Shown here piece by piece: positions 14,250 through 63,821 of a stretch of DNA of 64,000 bases. The notes under the pieces are model-generated. The model made no database searches, was not told the DNA's origin, and saw only the letters and a list, made by a program, of their open reading frames with translations. Each line of letters starts with the position of its first letter. Position 1 is the first letter of the stretch. Both the position numbers and the translations under genes were made by a program. The stretch is from an archaeon (GTDB lineage Archaea; B1Sed10-29; JAVZDC01): positions 70,703-134,702 of the forward strand of contig JAVZDC010000001.1 in the NCBI GenBank assembly GCA_038874115.1, read 5' to 3'.

Positions 14250-14263
14250 AATATTTAAATATT
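14250..14263. promoter_or_regulatory. Palindromic TATA-like element upstream of the kaiC-like gene
   Basis: AATATTTAAATATT, a perfect 14-bp palindrome 22-35 nt before the ATG at 14228; no SD, so probably a leaderless mRNA. Confidence 0.45.
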
Positions 14264-43360: not shown

Positions 43361-43488
43361 CTTTGCTCGATCGGTCCAGGTTCCCAAGATACAAGATCCT
43401 CTGCAGGAATTAACTGGTCTGGAAACTTCTTTTTTCTTTTTTTCTTTTTCTGAGTTGGCTTTGGAATTTCAAATGAAATTTCATCCAT
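43357..43488 (-). CDS. 43-aa basic microprotein
   Basis: ATG 43488 overlaps the radical SAM stop; MDEISFEIPKPTQKKKKRKKKFPDQLIPAEDLVSWEPGPIEQS. Confidence 0.45.
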   Translation of the reverse strand: MDEISFEIPKPTQKKKKRKKKFPDQLIPAEDLVSWEPGPIEQS

Positions 43489-44521
43489 AATATCTACCAA
43501 AGATTGGAATATTTTGACCACAATAAATACATTTATTTTTTTCATCTAGATGCCAACCAACTATCGAAAAACCAAATCTTTCTATAACTTTTTTTCCACA
43601 ACTTGGGCAAAAAGTATTCTCAAACTCATGCCCAAGAACATTTCCAATGTATACATAATTCATTTTTTTACTCGCAATAGAATGCGCTCTTTCCAAATCT
43701 TCGATCGCAGTTGGAGAGACATCGAGCATTTTATATGCTGGATAAAACCTTGTGAAATGCCAAGGGATATCTGGGTTTATGCTTGAAAGATAATCTGTCA
43801 TGTCTGAAATCCATTTTTCATCTGTATTCTTACCTGGAATTAAAAGAGTAATCACTTCCAAATGAATCTTACCTGCACATTTTTCTATGTTTTCTAAAAC
43901 AGGCTCCAAGTGTGCACCACCAACTATTTTCCGATAAAAATTTTCATCCCCTTTAAGGTCGATTCTTATTCCATCCAAGAACTTAAGTAATTCTTTTCTA
44001 GAATCCTCGGAAAAATAACCATTTGAAACAAAAACATTGTATAAATTATGTTTTTTAGCTATCTTAGCCGTGTCTTCACAATATTCAAAGAAAATAGTAG
44101 GTTCTGTGTAAGTATAAGCAATCCCGTGACATCTTTCCATTAAAGCACTTTGAACTACTTTTTCTGGCGGCAAATCAAACTCCGGAACATCTCCTGGGAA
44201 TGCTTGAGAAATTTCCCAATTCTGACAATGTAAACAAGCAAAATTGCACCCAACAGTTGCTATAGAATAAGATAAAGAACCAGGATTAAAGTGAAAGAAA
44301 GGCTTTTTTTCTATTGGGTCAACCTCAAAAGAACATGGTTTTCCATAAGTTAAAGCATAAAGTTTTCCATCTATGTTTTTCCTAACCCTACAAAAACCAG
44401 TTTTTCCTTCTGGAATCGTACAAAACCTATGGCAAAGTAAACATCTTACTGTTTTGTTTGCCTTTTTTTCATAAAATCTTGCCTCATGTAGAACATCATT
44501 TGGAACCATGTTTTTAAACAC
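43481..44521 (-). CDS. amrS: AmmeMemoRadiSam-type radical SAM enzyme (PflA-like)
   Basis: CLLCHRFC, GFCRVR, DPIEKKP, GCNFACLHCQNWEISQ, YTYTEP, YVYIGN, C-terminal Zn finger. Confidence 0.88.
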   Translation of the reverse strand: MFKNMVPNDVLHEARFYEKKANKTVRCLLCHRFCTIPEGKTGFCRVRKNIDGKLYALTYGKPCSFEVDPIEKKPFFHFNPGSLSYSIATVGCNFACLHCQNWEISQAFPGDVPEFDLPPEKVVQSALMERCHGIAYTYTEPTIFFEYCEDTAKIAKKHNLYNVFVSNGYFSEDSRKELLKFLDGIRIDLKGDENFYRKIVGGAHLEPVLENIEKCAGKIHLEVITLLIPGKNTDEKWISDMTDYLSSINPDIPWHFTRFYPAYKMLDVSPTAIEDLERAHSIASKKMNYVYIGNVLGHEFENTFCPSCGKKVIERFGFSIVGWHLDEKNKCIYCGQNIPIFGRYYG

Positions 44522-44587
44522 GAAGAGTAAATATTTAAATACTTTGCGGATTTTTAAATAAATAAATGCTTTTAAAGGGGTGAAAAA

Positions 44588-44881
44588 ATGGCTGAAAAGA
44601 TAAATTTCACGATTGAGAACATAGTTGCGTTTGCAAACTTAGGGGTTGAGCTAGACCTTTATGCAATAGCAAAAGAAGTACATGGGAAAAATGTGCAAGA
44701 TGTTGAATATGAACCAGAGCAATTCCCTGGAGCTATATTAAAACTTAAAGAACCAAAAACCGCTTTATTGCTTTTCAAAACCGGAAAAATAATTTGTACA
44801 GGAGCTAAAAGTGAAAAAGAAATCGAATCTGCGATGAATCAAACATATGAGCTAATAAAACCATACATTAGGAAGAAATAA
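44588..44881 (+). CDS. TATA-binding protein homologue with a single TBP repeat
   Basis: IENIVA, LDL, YEPEQFPG, LLLFKTGKIICTGAKS; 97 aa; SD GGGGTGA. Confidence 0.9.
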   Translation: MAEKINFTIENIVAFANLGVELDLYAIAKEVHGKNVQDVEYEPEQFPGAILKLKEPKTALLLFKTGKIICTGAKSEKEIESAMNQTYELIKPYIRKK

Positions 44882-45698
44882 TTTTTCTTTTCTTTCTTTT
44901 TTTCTCAATCTTTAGATAATTTTCTAATTCTTCACCCAATTTTTCCAAATCCAAATCTCCAAAATCTTCTTCCACAATCTCTGGAAGCTCTACAGGAGGT
45001 TCTTCAAAAAGAGGTTTTTCTTCAACAGCGGGAACTTCTCCCATGGTTTCGTATCTTCTACGCCTGTACTCCTCTGATTTTCTCACAGGGGCAGGAGCTG
45101 CTTGTCTCTGTTTTTCTCTGAAAGCTTTCAAAACTTTCCCCACATTCTCAAGAAGTAAAAGAATCTCATAAATGCCAAGCATCTGATTTGGCTTTCCCTT
45201 CGATTTATTATATTCCAAATAAATCTCTTTTTTTAGTTTACCAAGAATTCCTGAATCTGGAAGCATGCGAAACTTTTTCACAACTTCTTTAACTAATTTT
45301 TGATAATCTGATGCTATCTCTTCATTAACTTCGATATTTTCCACGCATTCCAAAGAAAGGTCATATAGATCTTTTATCGGAATGTTTGTCTTTACATCTT
45401 TTGGGTTCTTAAACCCGCCTAAATAATAATCCTTTTCTGGAAAATATCCAAAAGCTCTAGACGTAACTCTGTGAACAACAAGTGCTTTTTTTGAATAATA
45501 AGTTGATTCATAATCTTGGCCTTCTTTTAAACATTCCTCGCTAAACTGAACAAACTTATCGAAAAGCGATCCTAAAGAATAAAAAACTAAAGTATAAAAA
45601 TCTGCATCGCCAAAAAATATCCGTGAAACCAATTTCTTTTCAAATAACGATATCTTTTCAACTATGTTTTCAACAGACCGGAATGGATCGAATACCAT
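44868..45698 (-). CDS. Hypothetical protein
   Basis: 276-aa ORF with an acidic/basic low-complexity C-terminus. Confidence 0.6.
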   Translation of the reverse strand: MVFDPFRSVENIVEKISLFEKKLVSRIFFGDADFYTLVFYSLGSLFDKFVQFSEECLKEGQDYESTYYSKKALVVHRVTSRAFGYFPEKDYYLGGFKNPKDVKTNIPIKDLYDLSLECVENIEVNEEIASDYQKLVKEVVKKFRMLPDSGILGKLKKEIYLEYNKSKGKPNQMLGIYEILLLLENVGKVLKAFREKQRQAAPAPVRKSEEYRRRRYETMGEVPAVEEKPLFEEPPVELPEIVEEDFGDLDLEKLGEELENYLKIEKKRKKRKIISS

Positions 45699-45740
45699 AC
45701 AAAAATAAATAATTCTTAAGTTAAAAAACTTTATGAGAAC

Positions 45741-47186
45741 ATGCCAGAATTTGTAGAACTTCCATTCATCAAAAAAAATACTTTAGAAAAAAGAAAATAT
45801 CAAATGAACATTCTCGAATCGATAAAAGGAAAAAATTCTTTAGTAATTTTGCCGACCGGCCTTGGAAAAACAGCTATTGCTGCTCTTGTAGCCTCGACTG
45901 TTCTTCCAAAAAAAGTTTTGGTTGTTGCCCCAACAAGACCTTTGTCAGTTCAACATTATGAATTCTTTAAAAAAGTTATGGACCTTCCTGAAGACCAAAT
46001 TTGTTTGCTCACTGGAAAAACCAACAAAAAAGAAAGAGCAAGGATTTGGGGAAATGCAAAAATAATTTGTGCTACTCCTCAAACTGTAATTAATGATTTT
46101 AATAAAAAAATAGCTGATTTTTCTGATTTCGAATTACTCGTTGTTGACGAATGCCACAGAGCCACAAAAAAATACGCTTATGTTCCGATAATAAAAAATT
46201 TTCCAGGTAAAGTTCTTGGTCTAACCGCTTCTCCTTCGTATTCTTTGGAAACGATAGTTAAAAACTTGGGTGCTGAAAAAATCGAAATTTATACTGAAGA
46301 TCATCCAGACGTAGCTCCTTACGTGTTTGCAAAAGAAATTGAAAAAATACAAGTTAATTTGCCTGAAAAATATAAAGAAATTTCTGAAAAAATTAAAGAG
46401 ATTATAAAGAGGATATGGGAAAAATTTGGAGAAATGAATGTAAAAATCTCCAAAAGAAGAAGAGATATTTTAGAATATCAAAAATGGGCTATTGAAAACA
46501 AATTTTACCCCGGGATAGTGCTTTCAAGTGCTTTAATAAAAGCATACTATTCTTTGGATATGCTTGAAAGTCAGGGCGTTGATGCTTTTCTAAGCTATAC
46601 TTCCAAACTTATAAACAATCAAAGCAAAAGTTCAAAATTCTTGGTAAAGCTTGGCTTAAAAAATGCTTATGAAATGGCAAAAGATATGGAAAAGCATCCA
46701 AAATATAAGGCTTTGCTAGAGATCTTGGAAAAGGAAAGGGGTAAACAGGGAATAATTTTTGCTCAGTATCGGGATACTGTGGAAAAAATTGTAGATTTTT
46801 TGTCTGGGCATGTTAGAGCTGTGAAATTTGTTGGTCAAGCTGGCGAGGATGGACTTTCTCAAAAAGAACAACAAGAGATAATCTCTGACTTTAAAGCAGG
46901 AAAACATGATGTTTTATGCGCAACTAGTGTAGCAGAGGAAGGATTAGACATCCCAAGTGTGGATTACGTTGTATTTTTTGAACCCGTTCCATCTGACATT
47001 AGAAAGATTCAAAGAGAAGGGAGGACTGGGAGGCACAAAATTGGAAAAATTTATGTTTTAATGGCTAAAAAAACAATAGACGAAGCCAATTTTTGGAGTT
47101 CTAGAGCGAAGTATAAAAAAATGCTTTCAAAAGTAAAAGAATTTAAAAAAGAGCCTATTGGTCTAGAAAAGTGGTTGAATGGTTAA
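45741..47186 (+). CDS. Hef/FANCM-like SF2 helicase (helicase half only)
   Basis: LPTGLGKT, PTRPL, ATPQ, DECH, LTASP, AEEGLDIP, IQREGRTGR. Confidence 0.92.
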   Translation: MPEFVELPFIKKNTLEKRKYQMNILESIKGKNSLVILPTGLGKTAIAALVASTVLPKKVLVVAPTRPLSVQHYEFFKKVMDLPEDQICLLTGKTNKKERARIWGNAKIICATPQTVINDFNKKIADFSDFELLVVDECHRATKKYAYVPIIKNFPGKVLGLTASPSYSLETIVKNLGAEKIEIYTEDHPDVAPYVFAKEIEKIQVNLPEKYKEISEKIKEIIKRIWEKFGEMNVKISKRRRDILEYQKWAIENKFYPGIVLSSALIKAYYSLDMLESQGVDAFLSYTSKLINNQSKSSKFLVKLGLKNAYEMAKDMEKHPKYKALLEILEKERGKQGIIFAQYRDTVEKIVDFLSGHVRAVKFVGQAGEDGLSQKEQQEIISDFKAGKHDVLCATSVAEEGLDIPSVDYVVFFEPVPSDIRKIQREGRTGRHKIGKIYVLMAKKTIDEANFWSSRAKYKKMLSKVKEFKKEPIGLEKWLNG

Positions 47187-62603: not shown

Positions 62604-62810
62604 GCTCTCCTCTCTAAAACAGAGTATAATAAAGGTAAGAAATTTTTACGTCACCGCTTTGAATTATAATAACATATTTTATATAAAAACCTTTGTATCT
62701 CGGGTTCTGTCAACTTATTGGAGGCGATTAATCTACCTTAGTAACTCCAGGAGTAAGAGGAATTGTAAAATAAAAACAAAAAGAAAATTTCTACAAATTT
62801 CTTCAAGTAA

Positions 62811-63752: not shown

Positions 63753-63801
63753 TTTAATGCCCCTTTACTGCAGATATATATAAATTAACAGATATTTATA
63801 A

Positions 63802-63821
63802 ATATTGATGGTTATCAATAT
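63802..63821. promoter_or_regulatory. Probable ArsR-family operator
   Basis: Perfect inverted repeat ATATTGAT-GGTT-ATCAATAT between the divergent tauE and arsR genes, next to a TATA-like palindrome. Confidence 0.55.

What the first reader, a model, noticed from the sequence alone, without database searches (positions are those of the whole stretch)
44588..44881. Stand-alone single-repeat TATA-binding protein: candidate homodimeric, symmetric TBP
Seen: a complete 97-aa gene with a strong SD and its own TAA, flanked by a divergent and a convergent gene, so there is no room for a second half. Known: archaeal and eukaryotic TBP is a ~180-aa pseudo-symmetric saddle of two repeats, thought to derive from a homodimeric half-size ancestor. 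This protein keeps the DNA-contact residues (Asn in ENIV, both intercalating Phe in QFPG and LLLF, Thr in CTGAK). It combines a repeat-1-like start (IENIVA) with the repeat-2-like acidic TFB-binding stirrup (YEPEQFPG). Inference: it may homodimerise into a symmetric saddle with two TFB sites, or act as an alternative or inhibitory TBP. Several promoter regions here carry perfect palindromic TATA-like boxes (14250-14263, 44532-44541, 62677-62688, 63792-63805), though AT-richness alone could explain that.
Basis: partly seen in the sequence, partly recalled or inferred. Interest (0 to 1): 0.82.

Follow-up and report, generated by a model that had tools for sequence, protein, structure and literature searches.

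The report
Half-size TATA-binding protein, sole copy
This tiny archaeon encodes only one half of the normally two-part TATA-binding protein that starts transcription, so two identical copies probably pair up to grip DNA, the arrangement long proposed for the ancestor of this universal factor.

Summary
Window 44588-44881 (+) is an intact 97-aa gene with exactly one TBP repeat (Pfam PF00352, 98.8 bits). It is the only TBP-domain sequence in the 569-kb, 2-contig, 91.7%-complete genome by three searches. A second sample's contig shows the same undisrupted gene.

It is not a one-off. In its phylum (relatives' records are titled Iainarchaeum), 24 of 31 held genomes carry only half-size TBPs. 4 carry tandem two-repeat genes and 3 incomplete genomes show none. 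Named Micrarchaeota genomes show the same.

Half and full-length genes occupy the same locus. The two repeats of the full-length forms share long runs of identical codons, so the gene collapses and re-duplicates by recombination.

A homodimer model passes its controls (ipSAE 0.47 against 0.01). One intact TFB and BRE/TATA-type promoters are present.

Best reading: it is the organism's general TBP and works as a symmetric homodimer, with TFB and BRE setting direction. No biochemistry exists.

The palindromic TATA boxes are not above chance. This scan found the same on other DNA, in Micrarchaeota genomes. I found no paper that describes it.

The parts
44588..44881 (+). Single-repeat (half-size) TBP gene, 97 aa. 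Predicted elements S1-H1-S2-S3-S4-S5-H2. A lineage-specific 5-residue insertion lies between H1 and S2, and Phe replaces the otherwise near-invariant Ser at residue 15.
   Evidence: PF00352 98.8 bits; 35 of 35 PDB matches are TBPs, and the one query aligns to both of their lobes. (30 invariant columns among 40 half-size relatives, including N11, F46, F63, G72). (AF2 pLDDT 86.5; 44 PDB fold matches at E<=0.001, all TBP, TMq 0.71-0.84 to one lobe).
44577..44583 (+). Shine-Dalgarno-like GGGGTGA, 4 nt upstream of the ATG
   Evidence: GGTGA peaks at -10..-1 genome-wide.
44532..44541 (.). Perfect 10-bp palindrome TATTTAAATA in the divergent intergenic region, a candidate shared TATA box. Its centre lies about 27 bp from the in-frame ATG of the minus-strand radical-SAM gene at 44509 (leaderless spacing) and 51 bp from the tbp ATG (leadered with SD). 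Both flanks are A-rich in the respective upstream direction.
   Evidence: Genome-wide TATA-like boxes centre at -27..-25 from start codons. Function is inferred and no transcript data exist.
44552..44568 (+). Second AT-rich TATA-like tract about 28 bp before the tbp ATG, an alternative promoter candidate that would give a leaderless mRNA lacking the SD
   Evidence: by reading only. Not tested.
44868..45698 (-). Convergent 276-aa gene of unknown function that overlaps the tbp stop by 14 bp. It is a conserved neighbour of tbp in the order and so marks the locus as the orthologous tbp locus.
   Evidence: homologues directly downstream of tbp in 6 relatives: 3 with two-repeat tbp, 3 with half tbp. 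(no Pfam match). (all-alpha model, no PDB fold match at E<=0.001, so it is not a hidden TBP lobe).
43481..44521 (-). Divergent radical-SAM gene that bounds the tbp promoter region
   Evidence: PF04055, E 4.7e-18.

Best explanation
The 97-aa protein is this organism's general TATA-binding protein. Two identical chains pair through their first beta-strands and C-terminal helices. Together they rebuild the ten-stranded saddle that canonical TBP forms from two fused lobes. The symmetric dimer binds AT-rich TATA boxes about 27 bp upstream of transcription starts. Direction is set not by TBP but by the single TFB, which reads the A-rich BRE on one side and binds the adjacent stirrup. Either stirrup can serve, because both carry the YEPEQFPG motif. 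The gene belongs to a conserved family of half-size TBPs in Iainarchaeota and Micrarchaeota. This family most likely arose when an ancestral two-repeat gene collapsed by recombination between its repeats. It has been re-duplicated in tandem several times since. Shown here: gene structure, uniqueness in the assembly, conservation, synteny and recombination tracts. Inferred: dimerisation, DNA and TFB binding, and the direction of evolutionary change.
For: (1) It is the sole TBP repeat in the genome. PF00352 at E<=1 gives 1 match. A profile built from 53 half-size relatives, run on all six-frame segments of 30 aa or more at E<=10, gives 1 hit. The A1 profile at E<=10 gives 1 match. The assembly is 569,033 bp in 2 contigs and 91.68% complete.

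(2) Other near-complete genomes of the phylum show the same. G003 (91% complete), G006 (95%), G010 (91%) and G019 (96%) each have one repeat above the Pfam cut-off, in a 95-119-aa open frame.

(3) Distribution in the phylum, 31 genomes. 24 carry only half-size TBP genes. 4 carry a tandem two-repeat gene (G001, G007, G008, G011). 3 have none found (G015 80%, G016 67%, G030 61% complete). All 10 genomes sampled from other phyla have two-repeat genes.

(4) Purifying selection. 30 columns are invariant among 40 half-size proteins, with mean column identity 63%. 5 of the 6 variant sites seen inside the ORF in other samples' contigs are synonymous, and the sixth is R95K.

(5) No decay. 0 of 46 half-tbp loci show any remnant of a second repeat nearby.

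(6) Same locus. The 276-aa convergent neighbour follows half tbp in G002, G006 and G010 and two-repeat tbp in G001, G007 and G008.

(7) Homodimer model. ipSAE is 0.46, 0.47 and 0.47, against a best control of 0.01. pLDDT is 89-90 and at least 94% of contacts are shared between runs. In the tool's calibration the mark was reached by 20 of 30 solved homodimers and 1 of 23 solved monomers. The interface is symmetric, residues 4-16, 18, 68-70, 76, 79-80, 83-84 and 87, centred on I12-I12'.

(8) Partners are present. There is one intact TFB of 299 aa with a Zn ribbon and two TFIIB repeats. TATA-like hexamers peak at -30..-21 from start codons, for example TTTAAA 49 against 6-27 in the other bins. 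An unconstrained EM motif reads A-rich plus TTTWWAWA. A is 0.54-0.59 at -5..-3 upstream of the box, against 0.36-0.48 at the mirrored downstream positions.

(9) A review states, in passages I read, that orientation of the archaeal TBP-TFB-DNA complex relies on TFB-BRE contacts (PMC7289017).

(10) Recombination. N and C repeats of the two-repeat genes in these phyla share runs of about 30-60 identical codons. In G007, 59 of 71 identical residues use identical codons. In two canonical TBPs the figures are 24 of 38 and 25 of 47, without long runs.
Against: No experiment or transcript evidence exists, and no RNA run was listed. The homodimer pass may reflect the model's memory of the intramolecular lobe-lobe interface of solved TBPs. 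The tool says a pass shows likeness, not binding, and the calibration used other alignments than mine. The genome is not closed: 2 contigs, and about 8% of markers were not found. A second tbp in a gap cannot be strictly excluded. A divergent partner lobe beyond HMM reach cannot be excluded either. The BRE-like asymmetry is modest, and no control genome with a canonical TBP was analysed. Gene starts for the promoter analysis came from a crude longest-ORF call (595 ORFs). The repeat tree is unrooted and has only 85 columns, so 'collapse then re-duplication' is not separated from 'ancestral half, later duplications'.
Confidence: 0.75

Rival explanations
1. The half protein pairs with a second, highly divergent TBP-like lobe encoded elsewhere, forming a heterodimeric 'split TBP', rather than with itself.
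For: Other orders of the same phylum, and family f23 of the Micrarchaeota-like phylum, carry two paralogous half-TBP genes at separate loci. Heterodimers are therefore plausible in those genomes.
Against: In this genome no second lobe is found at E<=10 with two profiles or at E<=1 with Pfam. The conserved neighbour gene is all-alpha and has no TBP-like fold. It also accompanies two-repeat tbp genes. The homodimer model passes its controls.
Confidence: 0.08
2. It is an accessory, regulatory or inhibitory single-lobe TBP, like halobacterial TbpA or the Thermococcales monopartite TBP-domain proteins. The true full-length TBP lies in the unassembled part of the genome.
For: Single-domain TBP proteins that coexist with full-length TBPs are on record (Brindefalk et al. 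2013, PMC3597702, section 24 and Table 3 read). The assembly is in 2 contigs and 91.68% complete.
Against: Four other genomes of the phylum at 91-96% completeness also have only one repeat. 33 of 121 genomes at 90% completeness or more in the Micrarchaeota-like phylum have exactly one repeat at E<=1e-12. The gene occupies the locus where relatives keep their two-repeat tbp. It scores 98.8 bits on PF00352, unlike the divergent Thermococcales proteins described in that paper.
Confidence: 0.05
3. It acts as a monomer or in a role outside transcription initiation, for example as a generic minor-groove or nucleic-acid binder as in the RNase HIII N-domain. Initiation would then proceed without a saddle-shaped TBP.
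For: [quoted passage not shown]
Against: The family keeps the residues that TBP uses on DNA and the stirrup motif invariant (N11, F46, F63, Y41-G48). The roles of these residues are recalled from TBP-DNA structures and were not tested here. TFB and TATA/BRE-type promoters are retained. The S1 edge strand is the most confidently paired part of the dimer model, and the monomer model leaves residues 1-11 unstructured.
Confidence: 0.05
4. It is an assembly artefact, frameshift or decaying pseudogene of a normal two-repeat tbp.
For: None was found. The idea was considered because metagenome-assembled genomes can collapse tandem repeats, and the two repeats of related two-repeat genes share long identical DNA tracts, which is the kind of repeat that assemblers can collapse.
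Against: An 18.4-kb contig of run X1 (possibly the source) is identical over 43800-45800. A 3.7-kb contig from a different sample (X2, depth 33.7) spans 44184-45800 with 10 substitutions and one 1-base deletion at 44511, outside the ORF, and has no indel in the ORF. Half-size genes recur in 24 of 31 genomes of the phylum and on contigs up to 1.17 Mb in the protein database. No remnants appear in 0 of 46 loci. The gene has its own SD, start and stop, and the neighbour overlaps its 3' end. Contigs cannot exclude a minor two-repeat variant, because no raw reads were available.
Confidence: 0.02

Closest known systems
Canonical archaeal TBP (two PF00352 repeats, about 180-200 aa; solved examples M. 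jannaschii 2Z8U, S. acidocaldarius 1MP9, P. woesei 1AIS/1PCZ)
   Same: The lobe sequence and fold are the same. E-values to these chains are 4e-34 to 8e-33, and the one query aligns to both lobes about equally. Fold TMq is 0.71-0.79 with 41-44% identity. Conserved Asn, two Phe, Thr and the YEPEQFPG stirrup are present. It sits in a genome with one TFB and BRE/TATA promoters.
   Different: It has one lobe per chain instead of two fused lobes. NCBIfam TBP models score 63-87 bits against full-length cut-offs of 181-347, with 7 of 10 best stretches on the C half and 3 of 10 on the N half. Signature residues are fixed in the half-size proteins sampled from the two phyla and differ from 51 canonical TBPs: FPG-A against FPG-L, and FKNGK (FKTGK in this copy) against F-[RG]-SGK. 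In the repeat tree all 38 canonical N and C lobes form one clade (support 100/98) that excludes these proteins.
Half-size TBP family of Micrarchaeota, noted earlier by this scan on other genomes (e1-888952, e1-2896941, e1-4466575 and others)
   Same: It shares the architecture, the signature motifs, occupancy of the tbp locus and the presence of re-duplicated relatives. Identity to database members is 63-76%.
   Different: This copy lies in the sister phylum, where relatives' records are titled Iainarchaeum. It carries a unique 5-residue insertion after helix 1 and Phe at residue 15. In this phylum the other orders carry two paralogous half types, whereas this order carries one.
Halobacterial TbpA and Thermococcales monopartite TBP-domain proteins (Brindefalk et al. 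2013, PMC3597702; also mentioned in Ravarani et al. 2020, PMC7221094)
   Same: They are stand-alone proteins made of a single TBP domain in archaea. They were used as an argument that a single lobe can function alone.
   Different: Per the paper (section 24 and Table 3), each of those coexists with one or more full-length TBPs. The Thermococcales ones are highly divergent from TBP, and TbpA is described as not essential. Here the half protein is the only TBP and is close to TBP in sequence. I could not see the supplements of either paper, which may list further single-lobe sequences.
N-terminal TBP-like domain of bacterial RNase HIII
   Same: It is a single TBP-fold lobe that binds double-stranded nucleic acid (PMC3597702, PMC7221094, passages).
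   Different: It is part of a multidomain enzyme, is not a transcription factor and has no detectable sequence match here. All 44 significant fold matches and all 35 sequence matches in the PDB were TBPs.

Membership tests
TBP (Pfam PF00352 / NCBIfam PRK00394 TATA-box-binding protein) | Sequence match to the TBP repeat above the curated cut-off | tested here: met
   98.8 bits against a cut-off of 22.9, covering 83 of 85 profile positions.
TBP (Pfam PF00352 / NCBIfam PRK00394 TATA-box-binding protein) | Two tandem repeats in one chain of about 180 aa that form a pseudo-symmetric saddle | tested here: not met
   One repeat, 97 aa. All 10 NCBIfam full-length models score far below their cut-offs. 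No second repeat is found nearby or elsewhere in the genome.
TBP (Pfam PF00352 / NCBIfam PRK00394 TATA-box-binding protein) | TBP lobe fold (S1-H1-S2-S3-S4-S5-H2) | tested here: met
   The AF2 model (pLDDT 86.5) has these elements in this order. The top 44 PDB fold matches are all TBP, with TMq up to 0.84.
TBP (Pfam PF00352 / NCBIfam PRK00394 TATA-box-binding protein) | Conserved DNA-contact residues (Asn in S1, two Phe, Thr before H2) and the acidic stirrup that TFB binds | tested here: met
   N11, F46, F63 and Y41-G48 are invariant and T71 is at least 90% conserved among 40 half-size relatives. The same residues are fixed in 51 canonical N and C lobes. The assignment of roles to these residues is recalled from published TBP-DNA-TFB structures and comes from no call.
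TBP (Pfam PF00352 / NCBIfam PRK00394 TATA-box-binding protein) | Binds and bends TATA DNA, recruits TFB and RNAP | not testable with these tools
   Only context is available: one intact TFB and a BRE/TATA-like motif at about -27.
Accessory monopartite TBP-domain proteins (TbpA; Thermococcales group of Brindefalk 2013) | Coexists with a full-length TBP in the same genome | tested here: not met
   No other TBP repeat is found in the assembly, which is 91.68% complete.
Accessory monopartite TBP-domain proteins (TbpA; Thermococcales group of Brindefalk 2013) | Consists of a single TBP domain | tested here: met
Half-size TBP family of Micrarchaeota and Iainarchaeota | Complete ORF of about 90-130 aa with one repeat and the FPGA and FKNGK-type signature | tested here: met
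   97 aa, 63-76% identical to 39 aligned members. FPGA is present. FKTGK replaces FKNGK, where N is at least 90% conserved.
Half-size TBP family of Micrarchaeota and Iainarchaeota | Occupies the locus where relatives carry tbp | tested here: met
   The conserved 276-aa convergent neighbour is shared with 3 half-tbp and 3 two-repeat-tbp relatives. The helicase further downstream is shared with 2 of them.
Half-size TBP family of Micrarchaeota and Iainarchaeota | Forms a homodimer | tested here: inconclusive
   The model passes (0.47 against best control 0.01; the mark was reached by 20 of 30 solved homodimers and 1 of 23 solved monomers). It may be from memory of the TBP lobe-lobe interface, and no experiment exists.

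The most novel reading that the evidence does not exclude
The half-size TBP is not a secondary collapse. It is a survivor of the pre-duplication state. The root of the TBP repeat tree would then lie between the Micrarchaeota/Iainarchaeota proteins and the clade that holds all canonical N and C lobes. In that case these two DPANN phyla branched off before the duplication and fusion that created the two-lobed TBP of all other archaea and eukaryotes. The unrooted tree allows this: canonical N plus C form one clade with 100/98 support that excludes every repeat from these phyla, and the half proteins are nested in neither N nor C.
Probability: 0.08. Interest if true: 0.95.

Novelty: new variant of a known kind. 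Interest (0 to 1): 0.78.

Why it matters
TBP is needed for transcription initiation throughout archaea and eukaryotes. Its two-lobed, pseudo-symmetric saddle is a textbook case of a protein thought to descend from a homodimer by duplication and fusion.

Until now that ancestor was hypothetical. The single-domain TBP proteins on record are accessory to a full-length TBP (PMC3597702). Here a whole lineage appears to run transcription on a single lobe, and its close relatives have fused two lobes again. Nature therefore supplies matched half-size and two-repeat versions at the same locus.

This makes several questions directly testable with natural proteins:
- Can a perfectly symmetric TBP support directional initiation?
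- Does TFB-BRE alone set polarity?
- What does fusion add in stability, asymmetry or regulation?
- How easily does the architecture switch by recombination?

It also matters for annotation. Many database members of the family are named 'hypothetical protein', and full-length TBP models score them below their cut-offs. Marker-based surveys may therefore misjudge these genomes.

Tried and rejected
Expression. The look-up of sequencing runs listed no RNA holder, so nothing can be said on expression.

Reads. Only Logan contigs, not raw reads, could be laid. They show that the single-repeat structure is present in two samples of one study, but they cannot exclude rare variants. X3 and X4 gave only short low-depth pieces (depth 2-4), used only for the list of variant sites.

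Literature. Nine searches used terms for single-domain, half, monopartite, split and single-lobe TBP, and DPANN, Micrarchaeota and Diapherotrites with TBP, TFB or TATA. They found no description of a half-size TBP as the sole TBP of these phyla. They found only Brindefalk 2013 and one sentence in Ravarani 2020 on single-lobe versions. The library lacks most subscription journals, and supplements were closed.

Hybrid-origin test (N-lobe start plus C-lobe end). It was not supported: log-odds are mildly N-like along the whole length.

Rooting and direction of change. The 85-column tree gives a three-way split between canonical N, canonical C and these phyla, with no outgroup. I did not attempt distant outgroups, judging them unreliable at this length.

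Symmetry of TATA boxes. The unconstrained motif is the usual TTTWWAWA with an A-rich upstream flank. TTTATA and TATAAA are about equally enriched at -30..-21 (23 and 20). I analysed no control genome, so I draw no conclusion on special symmetry.

Palindrome excess. Rejected.

Neighbour gene as a hidden second lobe. Rejected.

Not run. I did not run the 'longer' protein-database search or the representative-library search, because fused relatives were already found through the genome searches.

Full report
WHAT IS THERE

Window 44588-44881 (+) is an intact ORF of 97 codons. It has an ATG start, a TAA stop and GGGGTGA four bases upstream of the start. The upstream gene is a divergent radical-SAM gene at 43481-44521 (-). 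The downstream gene is convergent, at 44868-45698 (-), and overlaps the stop codon by 14 bp. No second repeat can be read on either side. A maximally sensitive profile search of every frame around the gene finds nothing else at E<1.

Pfam finds one TBP repeat: PF00352, 98.8 bits, residues 6-91 on 83 of 85 profile positions. Ten NCBIfam full-length TBP models match at only 63-87 bits, against cut-offs of 181-347. Seven match on their second half and three on their first. All 35 PDB sequences matched are TBPs, and the single query aligns about equally to both of their lobes, for example 59.2 and 60.3 bits on 2Z8U. An AlphaFold2 model (pLDDT 86.5) has the lobe topology S1-H1-S2-S3-S4-S5-H2. It superposes on one lobe of 44 solved TBPs with TMq 0.71-0.84, and the next matches are insignificant.

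IT IS THE ONLY TBP IN THE GENOME

The window lies in a 569,033-bp assembly of two contigs, 91.68% complete and 0.04% contaminated. Three searches each return this gene alone:
- Pfam TBP at E<=1.
- A profile built from 53 half-size relatives, run on all six-frame segments of 30 aa or more at E<=10.
- The profile of alignment A1 at E<=10.

The genome has one TFB of 299 aa, with a Zn ribbon and two TFIIB repeats.

IT IS NOT AN ARTEFACT

An 18.4-kb contig of run X1 is identical over 43800-45800, but it may be the source of this DNA. A 3.7-kb contig of run X2, from another sample of the same study, covers 44184-45800. It has ten substitutions and one single-base deletion at 44511, outside the ORF. 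Inside the ORF it differs at one site only. Across all laid contigs, six sites vary inside the ORF. Five are synonymous third-position changes and one is R95K. These are contigs, not reads, so rare variants cannot be excluded.

IT IS A FAMILY, NOT A ONE-OFF

The protein database holds 716 relatives of 53-170 aa at E<=1e-5. Of the 120 listed, 51 are 80-109 aa long. Some lie on contigs of up to 1.17 Mb, and many are named 'hypothetical protein' in Micrarchaeota or Diapherotrites records. Forty half-size members align with 30 invariant columns and 63% mean column identity. The window's protein differs by a 5-residue insertion after helix 1, by Phe for the near-invariant Ser15, and by Thr for Asn65.

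The window's phylum equals its class in the held set: searches return the same 20 genomes at 85% completeness or more. Relatives' records there are titled Iainarchaeum. I classified all 31 genomes of the phylum:
- 24 carry only half-size genes. One of these, G004, has its gene cut by two contig ends.
- 4 carry a tandem two-repeat gene (G001, G008, G011, G007).
- 3 have none found (G015, G016, G030, at 61-80% completeness).

Within the window's order, 12 of 18 genomes have one half-size gene. In the other orders most genomes carry two paralogous half-size genes on separate contigs.

Among 80 named loci from the species-representative genome collection, 19 carry a complete single-repeat ORF. Their record titles are:
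- Micrarchaeota, Micrarchaeia or Micrarchaeaceae: 13
- Iainarchaeum: 1
- Marsarchaeota: 2
- Nanobdellati: 1
- unnamed archaeon: 2

No locus titled Thermoplasmata, Bathyarchaeota, Thermoproteota, Woesearchaeota or Pacearchaeota has a complete single-repeat ORF. One single-repeat match (L082) is cut by its locus end and was set aside.

In the Micrarchaeota-like phylum centred on G040, 118 of 121 genomes at 90% completeness or more have a match. 33 have exactly one repeat at E<=1e-12, and many others have two separate half-size frames. 58 matches were not listed, and one unpublished genome, G068, is in the tally.

HALF AND FULL-LENGTH GENES ARE THE SAME LOCUS AND INTERCONVERT

The 276-aa convergent neighbour follows half tbp in G002, G006 and G010. 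It follows two-repeat tbp in G001, G007 and G008. The helicase further downstream is shared with G005 and G008.

The two-repeat genes of these phyla are unusual. Each lobe scores 126-157 bits on the half-TBP profile, against about 80-108 bits for canonical lobes. The two lobes are 69-79% identical to each other, against 44% and 57% in two canonical TBPs. They also share uninterrupted runs of about 30-60 identical codons in the centre.

In a 126-row, 85-column maximum-likelihood tree, the N and C lobes of these proteins group by lineage rather than by position. For example, G007 N and C are sisters with support 99/83. The one-repeat label needs 8 changes on the tree, of which at least 3 are forced by well-supported branches.

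This is the signature of recombination between direct repeats: gene conversion, collapse to one repeat, and tandem re-duplication. None of the 46 half loci keeps a remnant of a lost repeat.

ANCESTRAL OR DERIVED?

All 38 canonical N and C lobes, from 19 proteins of other phyla including Woese- and Pacearchaeota, form one clade with support 100/98. That clade excludes every repeat of the two phyla. The tree is unrooted and the canonical N/C split is poorly resolved, so it amounts to a three-way split and does not give direction.

Twelve columns separate canonical N from C lobes. At these the half-size consensus is N-like at 4, C-like at 1 and neither at 7. The window's own sequence is mildly N-like along its whole length.

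Other DPANN lineages and all other archaea sampled have the N/C architecture. By my recollection, not by any search, eukaryotes share it as well. A collapse in the common ancestor of the two phyla is therefore the economical reading. A pre-duplication relic is not excluded, and I give it about 8%.

HOW IT LIKELY WORKS

A two-copy model passes the tool's mark. ipSAE is 0.46, 0.47 and 0.47, against a best control of 0.01. pLDDT is 89-90 and at least 94% of contacts are shared between runs. In the tool's calibration the mark was reached by 20 of 30 solved homodimers and 1 of 23 solved monomers.

The interface is symmetric. Strand S1 (residues 4-16) pairs antiparallel with its mate around I12, backed by residues 68-70 and helix 2. 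As I recall from TBP structures, this is where the two lobes of canonical TBP meet, so the pass may be memory of those structures. The monomer model leaves residues 1-11 disordered.

The genome's promoters look ordinary for an archaeon:
- TATA-like hexamers peak at -30..-21 from start codons. TTTAAA occurs 49 times in that bin and TATATA 30 times.
- An orientation-neutral box search puts 52 of 139 box centres at -27..-25, which suggests many leaderless mRNAs.
- An unconstrained EM motif reads an A-rich element followed by TTTWWAWA.
- A is 0.54-0.59 at -5..-3 upstream of the box, against 0.36-0.48 at the mirrored downstream positions.

A review states that directionality in archaea relies on TFB contacting the BRE (PMC7289017, passages). 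A perfectly symmetric TBP is therefore compatible with directional initiation.

The tbp gene itself lies 51 bp downstream of a perfect palindrome, TATTTAAATA at 44532-44541. The same palindrome sits at leaderless spacing from the divergent gene's internal ATG at 44509, so it may serve both genes. That is inference only.

The four palindromes exist. AT-only palindromes of 10 bp or more are as frequent as chance predicts: 43 against 40.9 +/- 5.7. The 'alternative or inhibitory TBP' option has no full-length partner to act on.

PRIOR KNOWLEDGE

Brindefalk et al. 2013 (PMC3597702; abstract, section 24 and Table 3 read) describe monopartite TBP-domain proteins in Halobacteria and Thermococcales, all beside full-length TBPs. 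Ravarani et al. 2020 (PMC7221094; passages) mention single-lobe versions in archaea. Nine literature searches found no account of a sole half-size TBP in these phyla. Supplements of both papers were closed and may list such sequences.

This scan has reported the same phenomenon on other DNA, in Micrarchaeota genomes, including gene conversion and re-duplication. I read those notes after my own analysis. They agree with it but are not independent evidence.

VERDICT

This is a real, conserved, single-lobe TBP that is the organism's only TBP. Most likely it is a symmetric homodimer acting as the general TBP (confidence 0.75). It is a new variant of a known kind, of high interest for the evolution and mechanism of transcription initiation, and it awaits biochemistry.

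Noticed in passing
L046 2964-5141 (+) = G007 contig 8: A 726-aa open frame with four divergent TBP repeats in tandem (38-63 bits each on the half-TBP profile). It lies in a genome that also has a normal two-repeat tbp.
   Followed up: no
window 44868-45698 (-): A 276-aa protein with no Pfam family, an all-alpha AF2 model (pLDDT 76.7) and no PDB fold match at E<=0.001. It has an acidic, disordered C-terminal part. It is the conserved convergent neighbour of tbp in six relatives of the order.
   Followed up: partly
L032, L033, L035, L037, L038, L041, L042, L048, L050 (relatives G018-G029): Other orders of the phylum carry a second, paralogous half-size TBP type at a separate locus beside the first type. 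A heterodimeric 'split TBP' is possible there. Two of these genes sit in 230-aa open frames with about 140 residues before the repeat.
   Followed up: partly
whole genome G000 (promoter survey): TATA-like boxes centre at -27..-25 from many start codons, which implies widespread leaderless mRNAs. A second class of genes has GGTGA at -10..-1. TTTATA and its complement TATAAA are about equally enriched at the box position (23 and 20).
   Followed up: partly
L049 2888-3541 (+) = G023 contig 1: A divergent 218-aa two-repeat TBP-like frame (15 and 37 bits on the half-TBP profile), in a genome that also has half-size TBPs.
   Followed up: no
G003 contig 1 84172-84276, G014 contig 6, G017 contig 69: Open frames of about 324 aa with a weak partial TBP-repeat match (about 18 bits, below the cut-off). 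No counterpart was found in the window's genome.
   Followed up: no
window 45741-47186 (+): A 481-aa DEAD/ResIII helicase (Helicase_C 5e-28) downstream of the tbp neighbour. It is syntenic in two relatives.
   Followed up: no
L074 2959-3661: In one Micrarchaeota-titled record the second TBP repeat is split over two overlapping frames (210-aa and 96-aa ORFs). This is a possible frameshift or a collapse in progress.
   Followed up: no
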